From: Terrimicrobiaceae bacterium
Lineage (GTDB): Bacteria; Verrucomicrobiota; Verrucomicrobiia; Chthoniobacterales; Terrimicrobiaceae
Length of the DNA stretch: 50,399 bases
Assembly (NCBI GenBank): GCA_044342325.1
Contig: JBIIPZ010000021.1
Location: 1-50,399 of the forward strand
Direction: 5' to 3'
The notes below the pieces were generated by a model. That model did not search any database. It saw only the letters and a program-made list of their open reading frames with translations, and was not told where the DNA came from. Both the position numbers and the translations under genes were made by a program. Positions 18,862 to 32,031 of this stretch are shown piece after piece. The number at the start of each line of letters is the position of its first letter. Position 1 is the first letter of the stretch.

Positions 18862-20763
18862 ATGCCCGATGACCAAACAATCGTAGAAGGCGACGCCGGA
18901 TTCCTCGGCATGGCCTCCCGCCTCAACCCGCTGCAACTCCAGCCGGGCATGGTCCAGTATTGTGAAAACATGCGCCTCGACCGAGGCGTGGCGCAGACGC
19001 GCAAAGGCGCGAAGCGGTTGGGTGATGGCATCTCTGCAGGCACGCAGCCTCTCACTCTCCCATTTGTGCTGGATGCCAATGCCCGCGTGCGCACGATCTA
19101 CAGCGGCGGCATCTTCGCCAGCGGCGTTTTCAGCTCGCCGAACTACGACGACGAGAATGAATACATCGTTCTCTGCGGGCCGACCTCGGCGTTTCTCTAC
19201 CGGCAGGATGAGCCTATCGAGGAGATCAGCTATCCCGCCACCGGCACAGCGTCCGACGAGATCATCGAGCCCACGGACAGCGTTTCGACGATACAGGCTT
19301 TCAACCGTTTCTACCTCCTGCGCGAGGCCGACATGACTCTGCCTGGCTGGGATTGGAAATACACCACCGCCAGCGGCATCGCAGTCTCTGGCACCACGGC
19401 CACCGTCCACATCACCGCCCATGGCCTCGCTGCTGGACAGCGCGTGCGGATAGAGGAGGGGAGCCAAGCGGCATTCCAAGGGCATGAGTATGACATCCTC
19501 GCCGCTACGGCCAATGCCTTCACCCTCGCCGTGCCTGCTGGCACATTGCCGGATGTCGCCGCCGACATCGCAATCCGCCGCGTCAAAGCTCCGCTGTGGT
19601 GGGATGGCTCGACGATGGAATTTCAACGCGCCGCCTCGGGCGTGCCTGCCGAGGGCGTGACCTTCAAGACCCTGCGCTCCGCCGGCTGGGCCAGCTATAT
19701 AGGCAACCGCCTGTGGATCCCCGATGGCCGCGACACCGTGGCCATCTCGGATGTTCTCGACCCCGACCTCTACGACCCGTTTTTCCAATCTTTCCGCGCC
19801 AACCAGGGCAGCAACGACTACCTCGTCGCCATTCACCCATGGGTCGAAGGCCAAGCGCTGGTCTTCCTACGCAACTCGATCTGGCTGGCCAACCTCACCG
19901 ACACCAGCAACGCGACGGGAGACACCTTCACGGTGGACTCTGCCGTTTCCAAGCTCACGCTCCTCACCGATGAAATCGGCTGCGTAGCCCGCCGCTCGAT
20001 CCAGACGGCCGGGCAGTTTGTGTTTTTCCTCAGCGACGCCGGAGTTTACCGCCTCGACACCCAGCTCGACCTCAAGCTCCGCGCAAACACCCAGCCGCTC
20101 TCGGACCCCATCGCCGACCAGATCGACGAGATCAACAGCGATTACGCCCACCTTGCCGTAGGCCGTTGGTGGAATAACCGCTATTACCTCGCGGTGCCCA
20201 TCGGCGAGAACGCCACGGCCAACAACACCCTTTTCCTCTGGAACGCCCTCAACTCGCAGTGGGAATCCCGCGACACCTACGCCATCAACCTCGACGAGCT
20301 CCTCGTCGCCGCCTACTCCAGCCAGCGCCGCCTCTTCGCAGCAAGCCGCGCCGGAACGCTCTTCCTGCTCGATGAACTCGACTACGGCGACGATGTGCCC
20401 TACGCAAACGCGCAAGACCTCTATACCGAAATTCCCTCCGAACTCATTACCCGCCGCTACGGCTGGGGTAGCCTCAATGCCAAGCGCCTGACCCGCGCCA
20501 AGGCCAGCGTGCTCCTGCCGGACGCCTCCGCCTGCACGCTCGATGCCGTGACGACTGACTACGATGCGGACTTCCAAGTCGCCTCACTCACGAACACCAC
20601 CGGCGAGGAGGAAGACTACACGCTCAAAGCCCCCCTGCGCTGCAAAGCCACCGGCCTTGACCTCCGCTTCCGCACGCAAAGCGGCCGCCCCATCCTGCGT
20701 CAAATCAGCGCCGAAGCCACCCGCTCCGCCCTCGACCCCACCGAAACCCGCACCCTCAACTAA
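18862..20763 (+). CDS. Tail nozzle/stabilisation protein (P22 gp10 / T7 gp12-like position)
   Basis: 633 aa, beta-propeller-like motifs (GCVARRSIQTAGQFVFFLSDAGVY; NNRYYLAVP) and an inserted ATVHITAHGLAAGQRVRI module. Confidence 0.6.
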   Translation: MPDDQTIVEGDAGFLGMASRLNPLQLQPGMVQYCENMRLDRGVAQTRKGAKRLGDGISAGTQPLTLPFVLDANARVRTIYSGGIFASGVFSSPNYDDENEYIVLCGPTSAFLYRQDEPIEEISYPATGTASDEIIEPTDSVSTIQAFNRFYLLREADMTLPGWDWKYTTASGIAVSGTTATVHITAHGLAAGQRVRIEEGSQAAFQGHEYDILAATANAFTLAVPAGTLPDVAADIAIRRVKAPLWWDGSTMEFQRAASGVPAEGVTFKTLRSAGWASYIGNRLWIPDGRDTVAISDVLDPDLYDPFFQSFRANQGSNDYLVAIHPWVEGQALVFLRNSIWLANLTDTSNATGDTFTVDSAVSKLTLLTDEIGCVARRSIQTAGQFVFFLSDAGVYRLDTQLDLKLRANTQPLSDPIADQIDEINSDYAHLAVGRWWNNRYYLAVPIGENATANNTLFLWNALNSQWESRDTYAINLDELLVAAYSSQRRLFAASRAGTLFLLDELDYGDDVPYANAQDLYTEIPSELITRRYGWGSLNAKRLTRAKASVLLPDASACTLDAVTTDYDADFQVASLTNTTGEEEDYTLKAPLRCKATGLDLRFRTQSGRPILRQISAEATRSALDPTETRTLN

Positions 20764-20765
20764 CC

Positions 20766-22253
20766 ATGGCAACTCTCACCAAAGGCAAAACCTTCACCAA
20801 CGGCGAACTCGTCACCCCTGCCAACCTCCACCAGATGGTCGATGCCGCCACCGTCGCCAACATTGTCAACGCCGACATCGCCGCAAATGCCGCCATCGCC
20901 GACACGAAGCTGGCCACCATTTCCACGGCAAATAAAGTGTCCCAATCCGCCGTAACCAATCTCACCACCGACCTAGCAGGGAAAGCAGCGTCCATACACC
21001 AGCACGCTATTGCGGATACCACTGGGTTACAGACGGCGCTCGACGGCAAAGCGGCTGCAAGCCACAACCACGATGATCGCTATTACACGGAATCGGAGAT
21101 GAATACTCTGTTGGCAGGCAAGCAAGCGTCTGGAAGCTATGCACCTGCCAGCGGCATCGCGCCAAGCGCCATCACCGGCACGGCAGTTATCACGACTGAC
21201 TCGCGCCTGTCCGATGCCAGGACGCCGACCACGCACACGCACGATGATCGCTATTACACAGAGACAGAGATAGACACAAAACTCTCCGGCCTGCCTGTTT
21301 CTGGCCATACGCACACCATTGCACAAGTGACGGGCTTGCAAACGGCCCTTGATGGCAAGCAGGCGTCTGGCTCTTATGCCGCTGCTGCGCACACGCACGA
21401 CGACCGCTATTACACAGAGTCGGAGATGAATACTTTGCTTGCTGGTAAGCAAGCGTCTGGAAGCTACGCGCCAGCAACAGGTATTGCCGCTACTGCCATC
21501 ACAGGCACGGCGGTCATTACGACCGATTCCCGCCTGTCCGATGCCAGGACGCCGACCACGCACACGCACGATGATCGCTATTACACAGAGTCCGAGATGA
21601 ACACTCTGCTTGCCGGTAAGCAGGCGTCTGGAAGCTATGCCCCTGCAACGGGTATCGCGCCAAGCGCCATCACGGGAACGGCGGTGATTACGACTGATTC
21701 CCGCCTGTCCGATGCTAGGACGCCGATAGACTCGTCTGTATCATTTTCAAAACTTGTCCAAGCAGTTCAAGAAACATTGGTTCCAACTGGTTCCGTTGTG
21801 GCTTTTGCTTTTAATGCCTTCGCAGGCATCCCGGATGGCTGGATTGAATGTAATGGTTCTGCTGTGAGCAGATCGACTTATAGTAATCTTTATAGCAAAA
21901 TTGGAGTTTCTTATGGCAGCGGTGACGGAAGCACCACATTTAATCTGCCTGATCTTCGCGGATACTTTATTCGTGGCAGTGGGACTAACTCTGACGGAAC
22001 AGCTTCCGGGTCATTTGCAACGAAACAAAGCGATGATGTAAAGCCTCATAATCATCCCGTATCTTGGGCCTTTGGAAATTGCGTTTTAAATGTTCATGAG
22101 ACTCAAGGAGGCAGATCAACTGGGTCAGCTACGACTGTTACAGATATCAATGTATCTACTGGATTTCCTAGTGCTTCCATCGCAATACAAACTAATCTTG
22201 GCACAGAAACCCGTCCAAAAAACATCGCAATGATGTATTGCATCAAAACATGA
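20766..22253 (+). CDS. Tail fibre with 57-aa tandem repeats and C-terminal tail-collar domain
   Basis: HTHDDRYYTE and HTHTIAQVTGLQTALDGK repeats. Collar signature PDGWIECNGSAVSR..Y..L...IG..YG.GDGSTTFNLPDLRG.F.RG and terminal ETRPKNIAMMYCIK. Confidence 0.85.
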   Translation: MATLTKGKTFTNGELVTPANLHQMVDAATVANIVNADIAANAAIADTKLATISTANKVSQSAVTNLTTDLAGKAASIHQHAIADTTGLQTALDGKAAASHNHDDRYYTESEMNTLLAGKQASGSYAPASGIAPSAITGTAVITTDSRLSDARTPTTHTHDDRYYTETEIDTKLSGLPVSGHTHTIAQVTGLQTALDGKQASGSYAAAAHTHDDRYYTESEMNTLLAGKQASGSYAPATGIAATAITGTAVITTDSRLSDARTPTTHTHDDRYYTESEMNTLLAGKQASGSYAPATGIAPSAITGTAVITTDSRLSDARTPIDSSVSFSKLVQAVQETLVPTGSVVAFAFNAFAGIPDGWIECNGSAVSRSTYSNLYSKIGVSYGSGDGSTTFNLPDLRGYFIRGSGTNSDGTASGSFATKQSDDVKPHNHPVSWAFGNCVLNVHETQGGRSTGSATTVTDINVSTGFPSASIAIQTNLGTETRPKNIAMMYCIKT

Positions 22254-22651
22254 CCGCGCCCGCCCCCACCATGCTCCGTCCCGAGCCCTACCACGCGACC
22301 AAGCTCGCCGTGCGCCGGTCTCCCTTGCACCGGTGGGGCGTCTTCGCCACGGCCCCCATCGCCAAGCACGAAGTGCTGGAAGAGGCCCCCTACGCCTGCG
22401 TGCCCAAGAAGCAACTTGCCAAAGCCCCCGCCTGCGAGACCTACAGCTACTACCTCGACGACGCCACCAGCATCATCGGCTTCGGCCTCGCCCCCCTCTA
22501 CAACCACCACGACACCCCCAACGCCTGCCATGAGATCGACCAGGTAAACGAACTCATGCGGCACTACGCCCTGCGCGACATCGCCGCAGGCGAAGAGATC
22601 ACCCTCAACTACGGCGCAGAAAACGCCAAGCACTTCTTAGAAAAGGACTAA
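22250..22651 (+). CDS. SET-domain protein (putative protein methyltransferase)
   Basis: SET motifs: SPLHRWGVFA..PI...E, LYNHH..PNA and ALRDIAAGEEITLNYG. ATGA-coupled to the tail fibre gene. Confidence 0.85.
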   Translation: MTAPAPTMLRPEPYHATKLAVRRSPLHRWGVFATAPIAKHEVLEEAPYACVPKKQLAKAPACETYSYYLDDATSIIGFGLAPLYNHHDTPNACHEIDQVNELMRHYALRDIAAGEEITLNYGAENAKHFLEKD

Positions 22652-22655
22652 CCCT

Positions 22656-25355
22656 ATGGCAATGAACATGAGCAACAGCGGCGGAGGAGGGGGAATGTCC
22701 GGCGGAGGAGGAGGCGGTGGTGGCGCGATGAGCGCAGCCATGTCCGACAACAACATGGGCGGCAACAACGCCATGTCAACAGGGTCAGCAATGTCCAACG
22801 CCATGAGCGGCGGCAACAACGCCATGTCCGGCGGAGGAATGTCCACCGGCGGCATGGGCATGGGCGGCATGAGCGCCCCGCCTGCCCCGCAGCAGCGCAG
22901 CCTCGCCGACGAGATGGCCGCGATCTCAGGCTACGCCCAAGCAAACGCCCAAGCGCAAGCCAACACCACCGTTGATACCGCAGACCGCCTCAGCGACCAA
23001 GCCATTGAAAACACCGGCGACATTGCGCAACGCCTCCAAGACAGCACCTACACCGCAGCGGCAAACCAAAACATCCGCGACGCCGGAACCTCGGCCGCCC
23101 AACTCGGGCAAAGCTACAACCAAGTCGGCCAGACTGCCGACCGCGTAGCGGCCTACAACGACCCCGCCCAAGCCCGGCTGAACCAGCTGGCCCTCGGCCA
23201 GCTCTATCGGCCCGACCAGATTTCGTCCCAAAATGTCGCCGCCGACCAGGCGCAAGGTGCTCGCGTAGCCAACATAGGCAACACGCAAACCGCCCAAGTA
23301 GGACCCGTGGTCGATGCTCAAGCAGCCCAAGCCCGAGCTGCTCGCATGGGCCAAGTGCAAAATGTCCAAGGTCCAGCAGGCTATGCTGCCGATCAGGTCC
23401 AGGCGCAACGCATCCTGTCCTCGCAGATGGGCCCAGTTGCCGATGTGCAAGCCGCCCAAGCTGGGCAAGTCAATGATGTCCGCGCCCAGCGTGTCCGCGC
23501 CGCCCAAGGCATCGCCTCGCAAATGGGCCCGGTTGATAATGTCCAAGCCGCTACCACCGGCGCAATCGAGCGCGTCGGTGGAACGCAAGTCGGCGCGGTG
23601 GATCCGATGGAAGCCGCCCGCGTCCGCCGAGTCCAAGACATCCAAGCGCAGAATGTCCGTGCCAGCGCCGCCGAGCGGGGCTTGATGAATGAAGCCCGTG
23701 GCAATGGGCTCCTCGGCCAACTCGAAGGCCAAGCCAGCAACGACCTCGCCCTCGGCCGCTCCCTCTCAGCCGAGCAGAGCCGCGACGCCATCCAATCTTC
23801 CCGCGCCGCCTCATCCGCCCGTGGCCTCGGCCTCGGCCAATCCGCCATGGCCGCCGAGCTTCTCAACCGCGACCGCTTCGCCACCGCCAGGGAAAACGAA
23901 CGCCGCACCTTTGCTGGCAATGTCCTCGGCCAAGGCACTGCTCTTCGCACCTCAGCCAACCAAGCCTACGCCCAGCGGCAGGACGCCAACGCAGGCCGCT
24001 CCCTCCAAGCCGACAGCACAAACCAATCTGTGGCTCAAGCCCGCGCCATGCAGAATGCGCAGTTTGCCCAGCAGGCCCGGCTCACCGATAACCAAAACGC
24101 CCAGCAGCGAGTTCTCGCCGAGGCCGGTTACGCCCAGCAAGCCGGACTCTCGAACCAAGATTTCAGCTTCCGCGCCAATTCCCAAGACGCGCAGTTTGCC
24201 CAGCAAGCCAACCTTGCCAACCAGCAGGCCGCACTCCAACAAGGCCAATACAACGCCAGCAACCAGCAGGCCATGGCATTGGCCAACCTGCAAAACCGCC
24301 AGCAGGCCAACCTCTCAAACCAAGACGCCTTCCTGCGTGCAGGACTTGCCAATCAATCCTCGGGCCTCCAACTCGGTCTCACCAACGCCCAGCTCCAGCA
24401 GCAAGCAGCCCTGCAAAATCAGCAGACCGCTTACAATACCGGCCAAGCCAACGCCCAGCTTGCCCAGCAAGCCGCCCTCGCCAACCAGAGCACAGGTCTC
24501 CAAGCCTCTCAACTCAACCAAGCCGCCAACGCCCGCGCCGCAGAGTTTCAGCAACAAGGCGGCCTTCAAGCCGCCCTCGCTAATCAACAAGTTGGATTTC
24601 AAACGAACCAATTCAACGCAGCCAACCGCCAAGCCGCCAACCTCGCCAACGCAGGCTACGCTCAACAGGCAGGTCTCGCCAACCAAGCCACCGCCCTCCA
24701 GCTCGGCCAGACCAACGCCCAGCTCCGGCAACAAGGCTACCTCACTGATAATTCCAACGCGCAGCAGGCCGCCATGGCCGATGCAGGCTACGCGCAGCAG
24801 GCCAACCTCGCCAACCAATCGGCCAACCTCAACGCCGCCCAATACAACAGCAGCCAAAACCTCGCCGCCCAGCAGGCGAACCAATCGGCAAACTACAACG
24901 CCAACTACGCAAACCAAAATTTCCTGCAAGGCGTCGCCAGTCAGAACTTCAACCAATTTTCGGGCCAGCAAAGCATGCTCGGCAGCCTCTACGGCCAGCA
25001 GGCAGGCATCGCCCAAAACCAATACGCCAACAATCTCGGCCTCGCCCAAGCCAATGTCGCGCTCGACCCCTACCAACGCGCCCTCGGATCCAACATCCCC
25101 ATAGCCAGCCAAGGCAACGCCGCTTCGATGATCGGCCAAGCCTACGGCAACACCATGAACTACGGCAGCGACCTCTTTAATACAAACACCAACATGCAGG
25201 CCAGCATCTACAACAGCTTCCAAAACAACCAAGCCGCTCTGCGCGGAGCGCAAATCCAAGGGGCCGCCACCGCAGGCGCATCGCAAAACTCCATGATGGG
25301 CTCCGGCATGGCCGCTGGCGGCATGGTCCTCGGCATGACCGCTCTTGCTATTTAA
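22656..25355 (+). CDS. Putative ejection/DNA-pilot protein, Gln/Ala/Asn-rich with hendecad repeats
   Basis: 899 aa with a Gly/Met-rich N-terminus, 11-residue periodicity and a hydrophobic Gly-rich C-terminus. Lies after the tail genes. Confidence 0.65.
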   Translation: MAMNMSNSGGGGGMSGGGGGGGGAMSAAMSDNNMGGNNAMSTGSAMSNAMSGGNNAMSGGGMSTGGMGMGGMSAPPAPQQRSLADEMAAISGYAQANAQAQANTTVDTADRLSDQAIENTGDIAQRLQDSTYTAAANQNIRDAGTSAAQLGQSYNQVGQTADRVAAYNDPAQARLNQLALGQLYRPDQISSQNVAADQAQGARVANIGNTQTAQVGPVVDAQAAQARAARMGQVQNVQGPAGYAADQVQAQRILSSQMGPVADVQAAQAGQVNDVRAQRVRAAQGIASQMGPVDNVQAATTGAIERVGGTQVGAVDPMEAARVRRVQDIQAQNVRASAAERGLMNEARGNGLLGQLEGQASNDLALGRSLSAEQSRDAIQSSRAASSARGLGLGQSAMAAELLNRDRFATARENERRTFAGNVLGQGTALRTSANQAYAQRQDANAGRSLQADSTNQSVAQARAMQNAQFAQQARLTDNQNAQQRVLAEAGYAQQAGLSNQDFSFRANSQDAQFAQQANLANQQAALQQGQYNASNQQAMALANLQNRQQANLSNQDAFLRAGLANQSSGLQLGLTNAQLQQQAALQNQQTAYNTGQANAQLAQQAALANQSTGLQASQLNQAANARAAEFQQQGGLQAALANQQVGFQTNQFNAANRQAANLANAGYAQQAGLANQATALQLGQTNAQLRQQGYLTDNSNAQQAAMADAGYAQQANLANQSANLNAAQYNSSQNLAAQQANQSANYNANYANQNFLQGVASQNFNQFSGQQSMLGSLYGQQAGIAQNQYANNLGLAQANVALDPYQRALGSNIPIASQGNAASMIGQAYGNTMNYGSDLFNTNTNMQASIYNSFQNNQAALRGAQIQGAATAGASQNSMMGSGMAAGGMVLGMTALAI

Positions 25356-26449
25356 TGAACCAACACCTGCAAAACCTCGTCGATGAAACCCTGACCCGTG
25401 CCGAGTATTGGCTGCGGGAATTTCGCAACCCCGTCGTCCTCTGGAGCGGAGGCAAGGACAGCACCGCCATGCTGCACATCCTCATCTTCAAGCTCGGCGT
25501 GCGGCTCCCCTGCGTGCAATGGCGCGAACCCCGCTTCCGCCATCGCTACGCCCACAGCGACCTGCTCGCCCGCGAGTGGGACTTGACCCTCTTCGACTAT
25601 GCTCCCGGCCGCATCGCCATCCAGGATGGGTTCGACATCGAGACCGGCCAACCCCGTTTCGATTTCCTCAAGTATTACCAATGGGGCCACCACAGCGCCC
25701 TCGTCCTCAGCCTCGGCACCGAGCACCCCAAGGAAGGCGAGCCCTACCTGTGCGGCCTCACCGATGTCCTCCAGCGCCCCACCGGCTCTTTTAACTGGCC
25801 GTGGGACGCCGCATTCCACGGGCAGAAAAGCGCCGATGTCGATCTGATCAAAGGCGGCGTGCCACTCGCCCAGGATGTGCGCCGCGTGGATGACAGCCCC
25901 ACCCAGCTTTTCCTCATGCGGCATTGGACCGACGACGACATCTTCGACTACCTCGAAGCCGAAGGCGTCCCCATGGACCCCACCCGCTACGACCGCGCCT
26001 CCGGCAAGTGGGGCCACAAGCAGGACAAATCCCACAACGCCGACTACTACCCCATCTGCTGGAACTGCGTGAACCGCCACCTCACCGCCCCCGTGTGGTG
26101 CCCCAAGCTCCGCAGCGAGGTGAACAGCATCGCCCACCTCGCCCCCTACGAAGACAACTCCATCCCAGAGCAAGGCTTCAAACCCACATGGAATCCCAAT
26201 ACGACTGTCAACGGTGTGGCGCATGTTGCTCGCACCGTTGGAGCTGGCCCGTGCTCCGGCGCGACCGCTCCGACGCCACCGGCATCCCTGCCGAATACCT
26301 CCGCACCGACTACCCCCTGCTCAAGACCGACCCCTGCGGACGCTGCATCGCCCTCCGTGGCGAGGTGGGCCGAGGAGTCGCCTGCGCAATATATCATGCT
26401 CGCCCATCCGCCTGCCGGTCCTTCCAGCCTGGCAGCCCACTCTGCATAG
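25355..26449 (+). CDS. PAPS-reductase-like PP-loop (adenine nucleotide alpha-hydrolase) protein
   Basis: VVLWSGGKDSTAML PP-loop, WT..DI..YL motif and a late CWNC...C cluster. The last ~87 codons are low-complexity and overlap the next gene. Confidence 0.75.
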   Translation: MNQHLQNLVDETLTRAEYWLREFRNPVVLWSGGKDSTAMLHILIFKLGVRLPCVQWREPRFRHRYAHSDLLAREWDLTLFDYAPGRIAIQDGFDIETGQPRFDFLKYYQWGHHSALVLSLGTEHPKEGEPYLCGLTDVLQRPTGSFNWPWDAAFHGQKSADVDLIKGGVPLAQDVRRVDDSPTQLFLMRHWTDDDIFDYLEAEGVPMDPTRYDRASGKWGHKQDKSHNADYYPICWNCVNRHLTAPVWCPKLRSEVNSIAHLAPYEDNSIPEQGFKPTWNPNTTVNGVAHVARTVGAGPCSGATAPTPPASLPNTSAPTTPCSRPTPADAASPSVARWAEESPAQYIMLAHPPAGPSSLAAHSA

Positions 26450-26481
26450 AAGCCCGCCAATCCAAAAACCTCCCCACCTAA
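26188..26481 (+). CDS. YkgJ-family CxxCxxCC cysteine-cluster protein
   Basis: CQRCGACC...RCIAL.G.....CAIYHARP.ACRSF signature. Confidence 0.8.
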   Translation: MESQYDCQRCGACCSHRWSWPVLRRDRSDATGIPAEYLRTDYPLLKTDPCGRCIALRGEVGRGVACAIYHARPSACRSFQPGSPLCIEARQSKNLPT

Positions 26482-26485
26482 TCCC

Positions 26486-27013
26486 ATGCCATACAACCCC
26501 ACCGTCAACGACCGATCTGGAGAAATCCTCGCAAATGCCACAGCCAACGCAGCTCAAATCCGCGCCCAAGGCATGATGGCTATGGGCGAAGGAATAAGCG
26601 ACGGCCTCGCCGCAATCGGCGGCGGACTATCTCAAGGCATGACGAAATCCCAAGAAAACCGGATCGCCTCGGACGGTGCCAACGCCAAGTTCGACATGCT
26701 CAAAGGCATGAAAAAAACCGATGACCAACCCCTTTTCAGTCAAGAAACCATCGACAAATTCGACACCATGCCGCTCGGTAAGCGCCAAGCCATTGTGCAG
26801 ACAGCAGAGGCTATTATGGACGACGACCTAAAGCGCTGGATGTATCAGACCCAATACAACGCCCAAGCCAACCGCGTTAACGCGAATATACTCGCCCAGC
26901 AACCGGCCGCAAACCAAGTCCCCATAAACACAAACACTGCCCCCGCAGCGCAACCGCAGGCCAATCCTCCAGCGGCTCCACAAGATTGGCGCAGCATGGT
27001 TCCTCAGCGCTAA
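26486..27013 (+). CDS. Putative ejection (internal virion) protein
   Basis: 175 aa, Ala/Gln/Gly-rich helical sequence, in the ejection module. Confidence 0.5.
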   Translation: MPYNPTVNDRSGEILANATANAAQIRAQGMMAMGEGISDGLAAIGGGLSQGMTKSQENRIASDGANAKFDMLKGMKKTDDQPLFSQETIDKFDTMPLGKRQAIVQTAEAIMDDDLKRWMYQTQYNAQANRVNANILAQQPAANQVPINTNTAPAAQPQANPPAAPQDWRSMVPQR

Positions 27014-27018
27014 TCATT

Positions 27019-27984
27019 ATGACACTGACACCGCAACCCAATCCCACCGCCGAGGACATGGCAGACTTCGTAACGCCCGTTGCAGAAATTCCCGCCCCAC
27101 CGCCACAGCGCCAATCCAAGGGCCTGTCTTTCGATTTCAATGGCCTCATCGGTCGTTTACAGACCGAGGGCTTTGATTCTCTTTCTCGCCCGCAGCAAGA
27201 GCTGCTTTACCATCTCAAGGACAATCCAGACCTCGAAATGAGCCCCGAGCAGATGGCCATGTTCGTAACCGAGACCGACAAAAGACTCCGCGAGCAGGCT
27301 TCTCCAGAAGCTCAAGCACGACTTGCTAACACCCAGCTTGATGTTGCCACAAAGAAAACTGCACTTACTACTGCCGCAAAAGAATCCCAAGAAGACGCGA
27401 AAAAAACATACCAACGCGCATCCAATATGGTCTGGCTCCTTGATAATTTGAGGGGAGGAAAACGCGGAGAGGTTGCAGAAAAAAATGAAAAATGGAGGCC
27501 GCGCGTCGGATCAGTCGATGGTCGTTGGCCATCCTTACTTTCATCCGAAGAGACACTTGGTTGGAATGCTGACTTTAACAGCTTAAAGGGCATGATTAAT
27601 TTGACCGAGGCACAGGCCAACCGAGGGCAGGGTTCGCTGACTGAAGGCGAGCGCACACTTATGGCGCAAGCTGCATCTTTGGGACTAGATCAAGTCCGCG
27701 ACGAGGCAGGATTTAATAAAGCCTTTGAGCGCATGTATGACATGGCCGCCGAAGCTCAACAGTCAAACATGAAAAAACTTTCGGGCGCCGACAAGGCCGA
27801 CCCTTCATCCACGCCCGCACAACAACCCGCAACCACCGTCCCAGCCGCAGCACCGCAACCCCAGCCGCAATTCCGCAGCAAAGAAGAAATCGTCCAAGCC
27901 GTGAACGCCGGCAAACTCACCCGCGAGCAAGGAGTTTCGATCCTCCGCTCCCAGTTCAACAACGATTTCCGATCTGGCCAATGA
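27019..27984 (+). CDS. Putative ejection (internal virion) protein
   Basis: 321 aa, helical, with a GQGSLTEGER motif. ATGA-coupled to the next gene. Confidence 0.55.
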   Translation: MTLTPQPNPTAEDMADFVTPVAEIPAPPPQRQSKGLSFDFNGLIGRLQTEGFDSLSRPQQELLYHLKDNPDLEMSPEQMAMFVTETDKRLREQASPEAQARLANTQLDVATKKTALTTAAKESQEDAKKTYQRASNMVWLLDNLRGGKRGEVAEKNEKWRPRVGSVDGRWPSLLSSEETLGWNADFNSLKGMINLTEAQANRGQGSLTEGERTLMAQAASLGLDQVRDEAGFNKAFERMYDMAAEAQQSNMKKLSGADKADPSSTPAQQPATTVPAAAPQPQPQFRSKEEIVQAVNAGKLTREQGVSILRSQFNNDFRSGQ

Positions 27985-30900
27985 GCGCACTTCTTGACCC
28001 AGAAGCCTGGTTAGACGAGCAACTTGCCACCACAAAGCCCACGGTCGTTTCCAATAAAGAAATGACCTCCGATGAACTTGATGCTCTGGCAGCCGCCGAG
28101 CTGCCGGTGCAGGACGCCCCCATCCCCCCGAACGCCTCTACGGCAATCGCCGCAAGCGGAGCGCCTGAACAGACAGGCTCACCCGGACTGATCACCGGGG
28201 AGGGGGCTCTTCCTGCAAGCGACGATCCACGCATGGATGCCGAAACATGGCTCGACAACGCCATCGCCACAACTCCCACCCCCCGCGCAGTCAAGCTCCC
28301 AAACGGCCGCTCCAGCTACGGCAACGACTTTCTCAAGACCATCGACACCACCAAGCTCACGCCCGAAGAATATCTTTCCATTGAGCCAGATGTGGAGGTC
28401 GTCAAAGGAATGCTGCACAATCCCCAATACACTCCTTCCTTTGAGGAGTGGCAGGATTTGAGCGCTATCGAAAAGCGCCTCGTTGACGAGGGCAAAATCA
28501 AAAAACCCGGCAGCCTTGAGATGGTCGGCAATGCCGTAGGCGGCCTCGTCGTCCTCGCCAGCGACTTCATCTACAACACCGCCATCGATGCAGATGGCTC
28601 CATCACCCGACCAGGCGAAACTATTGACCGCATGCAGCAAGGCACATGGCGCGTTGCTCCCGCCGAAACCCTCGCCCGATCCCCAGCCACCATGGTCTCC
28701 GCTGGTAAGCTCGCTGGCGCTACTTTGCAATATATCGGCCAGATGATCGATGCTGATTGGAACGAACGCCCACAATATGTCGTGAACGAAACCGGCGAAC
28801 TTCTCGCCAGCAGTTCACAGCTTCGCCTCCCGCCCGCAGATATTCTTGCCAAGCAATATGCTGCTCGCGGTCAAACCGTGCGCCCTATCAACGAACAAGA
28901 AGTCCAGCAGTTCGACTACGACCGCTTCGTCCAACGCCGCCAGACACAGAAACTCGAGGATGATGCGCTAAACAATACCACCGCACCCACCGAGTTTATC
29001 ACCATGCTTCTCACTGGGCGCAACCAAGCGGAAAAGCCCATCCAATCGCAAGCACAGGTGGGCGCCACCGCAGTAGACCCATTAGCTATAGGTCCTGTTG
29101 CTTCCGCAGGCACCCGATGGGGCCTTTCAGCTTTTGGGAAAAAAGCCAGCGCCAAGATGCTCAGTGGACTGGAAAAAGCCAGCGGCGGCATCGCCCGCGC
29201 CAATGATGCACTTTTAGACCGCTTCGCCAAAACCGTCTCCGATCAGACCGGAGTCGAACTCAGCACATGGCAGAAAGGAATCGAGGCCACTAAAGATGTT
29301 GCCAAGCGCTCTGTCATTCCAGCATTGGGAGGAGCAGGAAACACAATTTTGGGAGGCGATCCATTTGTTTCCACCGCGATAGCCAGTTCCTACGGCCTCT
29401 ATAAAGGTGGCCTCTTCGTCCTCCGCCGCATCGAAACAGGCTCCCGCGCAGGCAAGACCATCCTTCGCGAATCTGCCGATGCCACAAATGGCCTTGACCA
29501 AGTCGCCCGCCTTGCCGTCGCAGCCAATCCCGCAGTCCCTACCGCAGTCCGCGAAGTATTGGAGCGCCCATCCAACTTCATCCCTCTGGAAAGCACTCCT
29601 GCCCGCATCGCTGCCAACCCTGCCTTCGGCCCCACCACTCGCGCTGTAGCAGATCGCCTTTCAAATCCCCTCGTTGTCCAAGCAGTCCGCAATACCGCCG
29701 CACTCGCCAAAGGCTCTGCCAAAGGAGCCATCGTCAACGCCCCCTTCGCCTACATGTCAGCAAATATGGGCGACCAAGAAGGTGCTGCTGGAGCTATCGG
29801 CTCCGGCCTTGCCTTTGGTGCCGCAGGTGCCGCATTTGAGCGTGTCGCCGGAGTGCGCGACCGTCGCTACCAACAAGCTGTAGGCGACATCGGCCGCATG
29901 CTCGTCGATGTGGAACTCGTCGGCGGCGATGTAAATCACCTCGTCAAAACCCGCGACATGCAGGGACTCGCCGATCTCGCCGCCATCCAAGGCTACTACC
30001 GCAACGGCTTTGATTTCGTCCCGCTCAACAACGCCGATTACAACGACAATCGCCGCGTCAACGGCCAGAAAGACATGGTCTCGCCAAACAAGAAAGGCAC
30101 CGCAGGATATTTTGTCCAGACGGTCCCAGATGGTGGAAAGCCCATCATCTACATGAATCTCGACGCCACCAACCGCAACCCCCTCCCGCACGAGATCGGC
30201 CACCTCATCACCGCAGGCGGCTTGGAGAATCCTCAGAAGATCGCAGCCCGCGCCTGGGTGGATAAAACCTACGGCACCGATGGCATTAAAGCTCGCGGCG
30301 AAGAATACGCCCGCACCCTCATCCAAGCCCGCGCCGATGCCGCCGCCCGCGCCGAAGGCAAACAACCCAAGCCCATCGACATCACTCCCGACATGCTCGC
30401 CGCCGAGATGGATAGCCTCGGACAAGACGGCCTTGTTCGCGGCGATATCACCACCATGGATTGGGCACGCGACGAAATCTTTGCCGAGACCTTCGCCACC
30501 AACGCCGCCACCATGGATTGGTCTTCCATCCGCAGGGGCAATCCCGCCGGCGGAAACTTCCTCACATTCGCCGAAGGCATCCTCGGCGCCCAAGCTCGCG
30601 GCCTCATGGCAGCAGGCGTCCGCATCGATCCTCAAACAGGCACTCCTCTTGACACCCCCGCCAGCCTTTTCAACGAAAACCCCGTCCTCGCCGCCGACCC
30701 CCAAATCATCAAGCAACTCGAGACCTACAGTAAAAACTACCGCTCCTACCTCCTCGCCCCCGAGCAGTCAAAACCACGCGGCGCTCGCGTCGCCCCAAGC
30801 GGCCGCGCCCAAGACATCGCCAACACCGGCCTCGTCAAAAACCACGCCAACGACCAAGGAGGGCAGGAAAACCTTTTTCAAGTCACAGACCCCACCGGCA

Positions 30901-31745
30901 ACACACGCGCCAAAGAACAGAGTGAACTCAATGCCGAGCAAAAACTCCGCTCCGAGCAGGTAGGGAATCTTTTCAAAACCAAAAAACTCAACTCCCCGGC
31001 AGACCCCACCGTCAGTTTGAAAAAACGCACGGACGGAAAGACCGAGGTATTCGGCCGCCGCTTGCCACAGAATTTCTTTTTCTCAAATTCCTTTGGCCGC
31101 CACATCCGCGATTTTGCCCGCGTCTTCGAGGAAGCCATGGACTCTGGTGAGACGCTCAACACAAGCTATTTTGCCCTCCTCACCCGCTCCGACACTGGCG
31201 CTGTTCGCGTCAAAGACCTCGGCAACACCGCCCGCATCGACCGCGAGGTCGTGCCGTTCCAGTGGTTCGTATCCAAACAAAACAACATCCTTGCCGAAGT
31301 CCTCGATGTCACAAAATTCCGCAACCGCTTCAACCGCGCCGTTGCCGATGGCGACGAACCCATCGCACGCCTCTTCGATAACAAATGGGACAACATTGAG
31401 CCCACATTCAAGAAGCTGCTCGACAACCACCGCAACAACCTCCCTGGCGAGTCCGGCCTCGGCGGAAGCGCCGTCGAGAAAAAGGATGTCCTCAACGCCC
31501 TCATCGGTATCGCCACAAACGAAAACCGCTCCCGCAACCCCTACAACGGCCGCTACGGCAGCGGCAGCGCTATTGAAAGATTCCGCCTCGACCGCATCAA
31601 CGACTCCACTAAATCCGGCCGCACAGGCTACCAATTCGACTACCCCAAAGCCGCAGGTAACGCCCTCCCCGACAAGCCAGCCCCCATGCCGGACTTGTCA
31701 AGAGACCTGCCAACGCCACAAAGCCAAGCCATGCCTGCCGAATAG
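27981..31745 (+). CDS. Large internal virion / polyvalent-type protein with HExxH motif
   Basis: 1254 aa, last gene of the prophage. Gly/Ala-rich hydrophobic segments, PHEIGHLI and a downstream DEIFAE. Confidence 0.6.
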   Translation: MSALLDPEAWLDEQLATTKPTVVSNKEMTSDELDALAAAELPVQDAPIPPNASTAIAASGAPEQTGSPGLITGEGALPASDDPRMDAETWLDNAIATTPTPRAVKLPNGRSSYGNDFLKTIDTTKLTPEEYLSIEPDVEVVKGMLHNPQYTPSFEEWQDLSAIEKRLVDEGKIKKPGSLEMVGNAVGGLVVLASDFIYNTAIDADGSITRPGETIDRMQQGTWRVAPAETLARSPATMVSAGKLAGATLQYIGQMIDADWNERPQYVVNETGELLASSSQLRLPPADILAKQYAARGQTVRPINEQEVQQFDYDRFVQRRQTQKLEDDALNNTTAPTEFITMLLTGRNQAEKPIQSQAQVGATAVDPLAIGPVASAGTRWGLSAFGKKASAKMLSGLEKASGGIARANDALLDRFAKTVSDQTGVELSTWQKGIEATKDVAKRSVIPALGGAGNTILGGDPFVSTAIASSYGLYKGGLFVLRRIETGSRAGKTILRESADATNGLDQVARLAVAANPAVPTAVREVLERPSNFIPLESTPARIAANPAFGPTTRAVADRLSNPLVVQAVRNTAALAKGSAKGAIVNAPFAYMSANMGDQEGAAGAIGSGLAFGAAGAAFERVAGVRDRRYQQAVGDIGRMLVDVELVGGDVNHLVKTRDMQGLADLAAIQGYYRNGFDFVPLNNADYNDNRRVNGQKDMVSPNKKGTAGYFVQTVPDGGKPIIYMNLDATNRNPLPHEIGHLITAGGLENPQKIAARAWVDKTYGTDGIKARGEEYARTLIQARADAAARAEGKQPKPIDITPDMLAAEMDSLGQDGLVRGDITTMDWARDEIFAETFATNAATMDWSSIRRGNPAGGNFLTFAEGILGAQARGLMAAGVRIDPQTGTPLDTPASLFNENPVLAADPQIIKQLETYSKNYRSYLLAPEQSKPRGARVAPSGRAQDIANTGLVKNHANDQGGQENLFQVTDPTGNTRAKEQSELNAEQKLRSEQVGNLFKTKKLNSPADPTVSLKKRTDGKTEVFGRRLPQNFFFSNSFGRHIRDFARVFEEAMDSGETLNTSYFALLTRSDTGAVRVKDLGNTARIDREVVPFQWFVSKQNNILAEVLDVTKFRNRFNRAVADGDEPIARLFDNKWDNIEPTFKKLLDNHRNNLPGESGLGGSAVEKKDVLNALIGIATNENRSRNPYNGRYGSGSAIERFRLDRINDSTKSGRTGYQFDYPKAAGNALPDKPAPMPDLSRDLPTPQSQAMPAE

Positions 31746-32003: not shown

Positions 32004-32031
32004 GTGGGTTCGAATCCCACCTCCTCCGCCA
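32004..32031 (+). pseudogene. 3' fragment of tRNA-Ser (prophage att core)
   Basis: T-arm GTGGG-TTCGAAT-CCCAC, acceptor strand CTCCTCC, discriminator G and CCA. No 5' half upstream. Confidence 0.8.

What the first reader, a model, noticed from the sequence alone, without database searches (positions are those of the whole stretch)
23217..24944. Matched repeat rulers: ~28 pentad/hexad units and ~29 uninterrupted Asn-anchored hendecads
Seen: 23988-24944 is an unbroken 11-residue repeat (NAQFAQQARLT, DAQFAQQANLA, NQQAALQQGQY, NAQLAQQAALA...). 23217-23666 parses by eye into ~28 units of 5-6 residues (QVQAQ, QMGPVA, DVQAA, RVRAA...). Established: phiX174 H protein forms a DNA-conducting tube from 11/3 coiled coils lined with Gln/Asn. 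Eleven helical residues and five extended residues each span about 16-17 angstroms. Inference: the chain folds back so an extended strand runs along a ~48-nm helical tube, giving an unusually long trans-envelope DNA conduit whose two repeat counts must co-vary.
Basis: partly seen in the sequence, partly recalled or inferred. Interest (0 to 1): 0.7.

Follow-up and report, generated by a model that had tools for sequence, protein, structure and literature searches.

The report
Length-adjustable phage DNA-injection tube protein
A short-tailed lake phage carries a protein that folds back on itself like a zip, one short extended unit against each 11-residue stretch of helix, and relatives lengthen or shorten both halves in step, which most likely builds a DNA-delivery tube whose length can be set anywhere from about 7 to 54 nanometres.

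Summary
Both repeats are real and lie in one 899-aa prophage protein, in the gene slot that P22 uses for ejection protein gp7. The predicted co-variation holds almost perfectly. In 98 measurable homologues the helix arm is always a multiple of 11 (4-33 units), and in 97 of them the other arm tracks it at 5.34 residues per unit. All 44 non-zero tree contrasts agree in sign. Indels sit at mirror positions about a fixed 107-aa turn (44 of 46), unit types pair antiparallel, and a natural nested chimera keeps register. A four-copy model (0.75 against controls 0.00) lays each extended arm antiparallel on the neighbour's helix; monomer models did not show this. Best reading: a gp7-like hairpin that forms a Gln-lined helical tube braced by extended strands, about 47 nm here, between tail hub and outer membrane. 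Kinship with gp7 rests on synteny, architecture and a language-model match; HMM tests failed. Tube closure, stoichiometry and location are inferred. My searches found no description of this paired-repeat design; the scan noted a hendecad ejection protein in another genome, and its listing mentions no such arm.

The parts
22656..25355 (+). Whole gene, 899 aa (P0001): gp7-like hairpin ejection protein with a variable-length strand/helix insert
   Evidence: ORF; no Pfam, PHROG, NCBIfam or PDB sequence hit; 173 homologues, 55 viral loci
22656..22874 (+). Gly/Met/Ser/Asn low-complexity leader, aa 1-73, variable among relatives; possibly removed or disordered (inference from the processed N-terminus of P22 gp7)
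   Evidence: composition; variation seen
22875..23216 (+). N-terminal arm below the repeats, aa 74-187, probably helical; presumed partner of the C-terminal helix
   Evidence: low-confidence helices over aa 160-181 and in a homologue; aa 74-156 were not folded; pairing inferred from P22 gp7 topology
23217..23666 (+). Extended arm: 28 units (18 pentads, 10 hexads), 5.34 residues per hendecad, about 3.05 A rise per residue
   Evidence: its last 43 residues contact the neighbour's helix antiparallel in the four-copy model
23667..23987 (+). Fixed-length 107-aa turn block, the hairpin tip; proposed to dock on the tail hub like the gp7 fingertip
   Evidence: 107 aa in 73 of 73 proteins that passed the four-anchor test; its profile finds 1104 clusters at E<=1e-3; docking is inference
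23988..24944 (+). Helix arm: 29 in-phase hendecads, about 47 nm; Asn at 1, Gln-rich at 3 and 7, small residues at 5 and 9, Leu at 10
   Evidence: predicted as long helix; in-register helix-helix packing
24945..25235 (+). Conserved C-terminal segment after the repeats, aa 764-860
   Evidence: conservation; partly helical at low confidence
25236..25352 (+). Gly-rich hydrophobic tip, the only membrane-like stretch (aa 881-899); proposed outer-membrane anchor
   Evidence: hydropathy 1.45; P22 gp7 tip 1.31 and 1.12
18862..20763 (+). 633-aa virion protein in the tail-hub (gp10) slot; assignment by position and size only
   Evidence: weak PHROG virion-structural hits, E 1e-8 and 9e-4; no PDB match; conserved upstream in related loci
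20766..22253 (+). Tail fibre / collar protein in the slot of the P22 needle gene
   Evidence: PHROG and Pfam Collar hits
26486..31745 (+). Three further genes (175, 332, 1254 aa) in the slots of gp20/gp16-like ejection proteins; the 175-aa one has a Gly-rich apolar stretch at aa 30-48, the 1254-aa one several hydrophobic segments
   Evidence: no convincing family hits; hydropathy; conserved order; function inferred

Best explanation
The protein is a P22-gp7-like ejection protein of a temperate short-tailed phage. On infection it leaves the capsid and refolds as a hairpin. The 107-aa turn docks under the tail hub, the hendecad arms of about 10-12 copies line up in register as a straight helical barrel with Gln at positions 3 and 7 facing the DNA, and each extended arm runs back antiparallel in the outer groove between neighbouring helices, one 5/6-residue unit per 11 helical residues, with its Val/Ile seated on small residues. 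The hydrophobic C-terminal tip anchors in the outer membrane and the downstream proteins continue the channel inward. The repeat block is a modular extension (about 1.63 nm per unit, 47 nm here, 7-54 nm in relatives) that carries DNA across a thick surface layer. Length changes by matched gain or loss on both arms, at least partly by nested exchange of the inner cassette between alleles. SHOWN: repeats, one-to-one length rule, mirror indels, antiparallel sequence code, nested chimera, gene order. MODELLED: strand-on-neighbour-helix packing and self-association. INFERRED: closed tube, copy number, lumen side, hub docking, extracellular position, the role of surface thickness.
For: Length rule: 98 of 98 measured helix arms are multiples of 11, and 97 of 98 lie within 1.5 aa of strand = 5.34n - 5.2; r = 0.9999 over 21 distinct length pairs. 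Other clades with their own anchors: slope 5.33, r 0.999 (23 proteins, 17 pairs) and slope 5.10, r 0.993 (16 proteins, 11 pairs). Tree of non-repeat parts, 74 tips: 44 of 44 non-zero contrasts have the same sign, r 0.99994, at least 27 changes of n. Single-gap indel positions agree within one unit in mirror order in 44 of 46 distinct comparisons, against 6 in parallel order and 12.7 expected by chance (comparisons share ancestry). Unit length against hendecad residue: up to 0.59 bits mirrored, at most 0.14 parallel; at mirror offset -1, 0 of 195 hexad pairs have Ala at hendecad position 2. Corrected mutual information forms an antiparallel diagonal. Four-copy model of aa 295-544: score 0.75, best of 3 controls 0.00; the mark was reached by 20 of 30 proteins solved as pairs of one chain and 1 of 23 solved as single chains (rough guide only: own alignment, four copies); runs agree in at least 88% of contacts, pLDDT at least 82; strand-helix pairs 181~282, 184~279 and 173~297 run antiparallel. 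L019 has outer arms 81-100% like one clade (68% in the crossover bin) and an inner cassette 72-100% like another, with 100 strand residues against 19 hendecads. Gene order matches P22 10-26-14-7-20-16. A repeat-free 282-aa relative scores 0.95 (185 features) to a cluster in which 32% of members carry PF25688 P22_gp7. P22 gp7 is a 12-mer hairpin with a hub-binding fingertip and a C-terminal outer-membrane anchor.
Against: No sequence-level link to P22 gp7: hhalign probability about 1% or less; HMM scores no better than shuffles. AlphaFold2 monomers left the extended arm at pLDDT 30-36 with no packing, and in the window's own protein drew parts of it as low-confidence helix. Four copies cannot show a closed 10-12-mer or which face is the lumen. 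Exceptions: P0034 has two hendecads too many; P0091 and P0084 have helix arms 4 residues off phase; a group with an unrelated middle block shows the same 91-aa strand with 293 or 326 helix residues. Within single proteins the mirror signal is modest (mean Mantel r 0.18 against 0.04 parallel; p<0.01 in 5 of 19; offset -1 is higher in most). Some relatives end in a Peptidase_S74 domain, which is typical of trimeric fibres (recalled). No neighbouring gene length tracks n and no host-surface data exist. Hub and downstream gene assignments are positional.
Confidence: 0.68

Rival explanations
1. Same hairpin tube, but it crosses the envelope (outer membrane and periplasm) with its tip in the inner membrane, like phiX174 H or T7 gp15; length then tracks envelope width.
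For: 47 nm equals the whole P22 channel (about 50 nm); Gln/Asn-rich helix like the H tube lumen; the 175- and 332-aa downstream proteins are shorter than P22 gp20 (471 aa).
Against: No hydrophobic belt anywhere in the repeat arms; n ranges from 14 to 29 among phages whose hub proteins are 97% identical to the window's and down to 4-5 in others, which is hard to square with a fixed periplasm; the gene slot is that of gp7.
Confidence: 0.13
2. The strand-in-groove rod is a low-order (3-4 chain) needle, stalk or tether, not a DNA conduit; the extended arms brace a solid coiled coil, like the leash-in-groove hairpins of class I fusion proteins (recalled).
For: Peptidase_S74 domains on some relatives; the model was run with four copies and passed; no lumen was observed.
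Against: A fibre gene already sits upstream; two helix positions are Gln-rich (38% and 60%) and there is no continuous apolar core stripe; membrane-like tip; gp7 look-alike.
Confidence: 0.14
3. The matched counts are a by-product of nested recombination or of two independent spacers spanning the same distance, with no specific strand-helix contact.
For: L019 shows that nested exchange occurs; monomer models show no packing; a few mismatched proteins exist.
Against: Crossovers on the two arms would not mirror each other unless mismatches were purged; residue-level antiparallel code; direct contacts in the complex model.
Confidence: 0.05

Closest known systems
P22 gp7* / Sf6 gp11 extracellular channel (Pfam PF25688, phrog_598; bioRxiv 10.64898/2026.09.03.749273)
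   Same: First ejection-gene slot after hub and needle/fibre genes; hairpin with a central turn; Gln/Asn/Ala/Gly-rich; Gly-rich hydrophobic C-terminal tip; repeat-free relatives are gp7-sized (about 250-310 aa) and resemble gp7 clusters in language-model features.
   Different: gp7 is 229 aa, both arms are helices (24-helix bundle) and it bridges about 6 nm. Here one arm is an extended 5/6-residue repeat locked one-to-one to an 11-residue helix repeat, adding up to 54 nm. No detectable sequence homology.
phiX174 H-protein tube (PMC7354561)
   Same: Amide-rich helical tube proposed to conduct DNA; contains hendecads.
   Different: Decamer of single helices, 170 A, 3 hendecads plus about 10 heptads, no returning strand, ssDNA microvirus; no homology found.
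T7 gp14, DEV gp73, N4 gp52 outer-membrane channel ejection proteins (PMC13434306, passages)
   Same: Ejected, helical, oligomeric channel proteins at the head of an ejection gene cassette.
   Different: Small (N4 gp52 is 150 aa), with no paired repeats or length series in the passages read.
Asn/Gln-zipper, leash-in-groove hairpins of class I fusion proteins (recalled; Duquerroy 2005 seen only as a title in the reference list of PMC8754743)
   Same: An extended chain held antiparallel in a coiled-coil groove, with Asn/Gln side chains proposed to grip its backbone.
   Different: Short, trimeric, non-repetitive, unrelated; structural analogy only.
Tail tape-measure proteins and type III secretion needle rulers (recalled)
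   Same: Protein length sets the length of an injection structure.
   Different: Those measure a separate polymer; here ruler and structure are two arms of one chain and must change together.

Membership tests
P22 gp7 family (PF25688 / phrog_598) | Sequence match to the family profile or to gp7 | tested here: not met
   No PHROG hit for P0001, nor to phrog_598 for any of 50 short relatives, while gp7 itself hits it at 2e-95; hhalign about 1% or less; turn-block HMM no better than shuffles. The Pfam copy scanned here gave no hit; whether it holds PF25688 was not checked.
P22 gp7 family (PF25688 / phrog_598) | Remote likeness by language-model features | tested here: inconclusive
   P0001: 0.91, 154 features, cluster with 13% P22_gp7; repeat-free relative P0179: 0.95, 185 features, cluster with 32% P22_gp7. 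A lead, not an alignment.
P22 gp7 family (PF25688 / phrog_598) | First ejection gene after hub and needle genes, before gp20/gp16-like genes | tested here: met
   Order in window and related loci against P22; neighbours assigned by position, not homology.
P22 gp7 family (PF25688 / phrog_598) | Chain folds back as a hairpin about a central turn | tested here: met
   Mirror indels, antiparallel code and complex model.
P22 gp7 family (PF25688 / phrog_598) | Both arms helical (24-helix bundle) | tested here: not met
   In the repeat region one arm is extended: 5.34 residues span 11 helical residues. Below the repeats both arms may be helical (low confidence).
P22 gp7 family (PF25688 / phrog_598) | Hydrophobic C-terminal membrane anchor | tested here: met
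   Single hydropathy peak at aa 881-899; gp7 has two such helices.
P22 gp7 family (PF25688 / phrog_598) | Dodecamer docked on the hub, ejected on infection | not testable with these tools
   Complex tool limited to four copies; self-association supported.
Microvirus H (pilot) protein | Sequence homology and ssDNA microvirus context | tested here: not met
   No PDB sequence hit; context is a tailed phage with terminase and SU10-type capsid protein.
Microvirus H (pilot) protein | Amide-lined helical tube | tested here: inconclusive
   120 of 319 helix residues are Gln/Asn; lumen side inferred from contact positions.

The most novel reading that the evidence does not exclude
This is a self-ruling, telescoping DNA conduit of an undescribed architecture: a 10-12-helix barrel clad in extended strands by a one-unit-per-hendecad code. 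Its length is a fast-evolving host-adaptation trait (14 to 29 units among phages with hub proteins 97% identical to the window's), reset by nested cassette exchange, and it lets short-tailed phages reach the outer membrane through capsules or O-antigen layers tens of nanometres thick.
Probability: 0.45. Interest if true: 0.88.

Novelty: new variant of a known kind. Interest (0 to 1): 0.78.

Why it matters
How short-tailed phages deliver DNA across surface layers much thicker than the 6-nm gap that P22 bridges is open. This family offers a natural length series (4-33 units) with a numerical prediction, 1.63 nm per unit, that tomography or purified fragments can test directly, and it suggests ejection-channel length as a host-range variable. 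Independently of function, a strand-on-helix repeat code that holds in 97 of 98 measured proteins is a rare, clean case of two repeats in one gene co-evolving unit by unit, and a ready template for length-programmable protein tubes.

Tried and rejected
Family scans of P0001 (Pfam, PHROGs, NCBIfam; alignment A1 against Pfam, weak chance-level hits only). PDB by sequence and by fold: nothing at E<=0.001; weak BFVD rows named 'internal virion protein' (E 0.8-2.8) were not counted. tblastn of the turn block against annotated phage genomes: no match, so no cultured representative was found there. Direct homology to P22 gp7: failed. AlphaFold2 monomers: no strand-helix packing. Correlation of n with the length of neighbouring proteins (hub, fibre, 773-, 181-, 175-, 332-aa, SET, PAPS-like): none, |rho|<=0.33; the 1254-aa protein had too few complete copies to test. 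The N-terminal region length does correlate loosely with n (rho 0.51) and the C-terminal one does not; I read this as lineage, untested. Parallel pairing of the arms: rejected. A DNA-level explanation such as an inverted repeat was dismissed by reasoning only (16 against 33 codons per three units), not searched. Joints have short sides and were not used. Sequencing rows with low word shares were not used as habitat evidence. Literature searches found the P22 structure preprint but no description of paired pentad/hendecad repeats or of gp7 length series; the library lacks most subscription papers and preprint supplements are closed, so fig. S6/S11 of the P22 preprint were seen only as cited text or legend.

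Full report
Setting. The window is a whole 50.4-kb contig of a 2.9-Mb assembly. Bases 1 to about 32,030 are a short-tailed-phage genome (primase/helicase, terminase, scaffold, SU10-type capsid protein, fibres); bacterial genes of a lipid-A-making host follow. Two of three named genome records with a homologue are verrucomicrobial, and 3 of 101 other genomes of the same family carry one, so the host is probably a verrucomicrobium (inference). The five runs that hold most of the gene are lake-water metagenomes, three of them possible sources. Both flagged stretches lie in one ORF, 22656-25355, 899 aa, with no family or structure hit.

The hendecad block is exactly 29 x 11 residues, in phase, Asn first in 23 of 29 units (shuffles reach at most 14). 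The upstream block is 150 residues with a period near 5.4 and parses into 18 pentads and 10 hexads far better than shuffles. A 107-residue block separates them.

Co-variation. I pooled 164 distinct proteins ids and one. Of these, 107 carry the 107-residue type of middle block; 9 lacked an anchor (several truncated) and 98 were measured. All 98 helix arms are multiples of 11, from 4 to 33 units, and 97 fall within 1.5 residues of strand = 5.34n - 5.2. The anchors were chosen after seeing the sequences but lie outside the repeats. On the earlier set of 86 the 21 distinct length pairs give r = 0.9999. Clades with other anchors obey the same rule: 23 proteins, slope 5.33, r 0.999; 16 proteins, slope 5.10, r 0.993; two small groups (9 and 2 proteins) agree. 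The remaining proteins (repeat-free, or without usable anchors) were not measured. On a tree built from non-repeat parts of 74 tips, n changes at least 27 times and all 44 non-zero contrasts of 73 have the same sign. Phages whose hub-slot protein is 97% identical to the window's carry 14, 21 or 29 units, so length changes fast.

The arms pair antiparallel. Among 36 representatives, 64 pairs fit a single-gap model; in 44 of 46 distinct comparisons the gap starts within one unit of the same distance from the turn on both arms, against 6 for parallel order and 12.7 by chance (not all independent; the window's own comparison with the 19-unit allele is two units off). Unit type predicts hendecad type in mirror order (0.59 bits against at most 0.14 parallel), and corrected mutual information runs along an antiparallel diagonal (effective n about 122). 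Within single proteins the signal is weaker. L019 joins outer arms of one clade to the inner cassette of another and keeps 100 strand residues against 19 hendecads, which shows one way matched indels arise.

Structure. AlphaFold2 monomers give the hendecad arm as long helix (pLDDT mostly 70-83) and leave the other arm unresolved. Four copies of aa 295-544 folded together score 0.75 against 0.00 for the best of three controls; the mark was reached by 20 of 30 proteins solved as pairs and 1 of 23 solved as single chains, a rough guide for this job; runs agree in at least 88% of contacts, pLDDT at least 82. Helices pack in register, positions 2, 6 and 10 against 4, 11 and 1 in the best-defined pairs; the extended arm of one copy lies antiparallel on the neighbour's helix, with a unit's Ile against hendecad position 9, where the covariation diagonal also points. 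The same alignment family fed both, so they are not fully independent. Gln-rich positions 3 and 7 lie on the side away from the strand, the natural lumen face (inference). The ratio 11:5.34 gives 3.05 A per strand residue; 29 units give 47 nm; 10-12 helices would have an axis diameter of 28-37 A (arithmetic).

What it is. The gene order hub-slot protein, fibre, small enzyme gene, this gene, then three more large genes is conserved and parallels P22 10-26-14-7-20-16. The P22 preprint (10.64898/2026.09.03.749273; read: abstract, introduction, first results sections, first part of the discussion, keyword passages) shows gp7 as a dodecameric hairpin whose central fingertip grips the hub and whose C-terminal hydrophobic helices sit in the outer membrane; 'repeat' does not occur in its text. 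Our protein has the same plan, with its only hydrophobic stretch at the C-terminus. The turn-block profile finds 1104 clusters, many of them short and repeat-free, and one such relative resembles P22_gp7 clusters by language-model features. Sequence-profile tests of kinship all failed, so I say it works like gp7 and do not file it in that family. phiX174 H (PMC7354561, passages) is an analogy for an amide-lined lumen; its tube is mostly heptads. N4/DEV/T7 channel proteins (PMC13434306, passages) show nothing similar in what I read. The Asn/Gln-zipper analogy is recalled; only the paper's title was seen.

Against. No closed tube, stoichiometry, virion location or host-surface measurement was obtained. 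One protein (P0034) breaks the rule by two units, two are four residues off phase, and a group with an unrelated middle block matches loosely. S74 domains on some relatives keep a trimeric-rod reading alive. Neighbour assignments are positional.

Verdict. Best explanation 0.68; trans-envelope 0.13; solid rod 0.14; no contact 0.05. Nine literature searches found no account of this paired-repeat design. The scan holds a note on another hendecad ejection protein (e1-6292106), read there as stacked helical hairpins and not tested by me, and a note on the enzyme genes around this one (e1-7756498). New variant of a known kind, with an apparently undescribed architecture; interest 0.78.

Noticed in passing
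window 25355-26449; L005:10805-12966 and 11 more loci: The slot after the repeat gene holds either a PAPS-reductase/CysD-like PP-loop gene or a YcaO + TfuA pair, and this goes with the repeat protein's C-terminus: a Cys-Trp-containing extension with YcaO next in 12 loci, the extension with neither in 4, no extension with the PP-loop gene in 27, no extension with neither in 3, and no crossed case among 46. Suggests that these enzymes modify the ejection protein's tip; kin share the pattern, so it is not an independent count.
   Followed up: partly
window 22238-22651: SET-domain gene between fibre and repeat gene, in the slot of P22 gene 14; present in most related loci.
   Followed up: no
P0061, P0089 and others: Relatives carry interchangeable C-terminal add-ons after the hydrophobic tip: Peptidase_S74 (E 2e-10), a Hint-like domain (E 0.013) or the Cys-Trp extension; all may be self-cleaving or processing modules.
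   Followed up: partly
L019:7812-10319: Natural nested chimera: outer arms from one clade, inner cassette including the turn from another, register kept.
   Followed up: yes
P0150, P0169, P0209, P0220: Other members of the turn-block family seem to lengthen the hairpin with helix-against-helix repeats (7- or 14-residue periods on both arms, by eye), a second way to extend the same scaffold.
   Followed up: no
P0077, P0078, P0093, P0097, P0104, P0118 and similar: A second group with an unrelated middle block has the same pentad-before, hendecad-after layout with very regular units; the count match is looser. Possibly an independent origin or a very distant branch.
   Followed up: partly
window 32004-32031; L002:13458-14525: Phage genes end at a short tmRNA-3'-end-like sequence (E 0.0011); viral contig L002 matches the window up to 32031 and continues into a 355-aa ORF that looks like a tyrosine integrase by eye. 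Consistent with a prophage junction; bacterial genes, including lipid A and heptose transferases, follow.
   Followed up: partly
window 25924-26481: A Cys-rich overlapping reading frame (CxxCxxCC-like) at the end of the PP-loop gene; also noted by e1-7756498.
   Followed up: no
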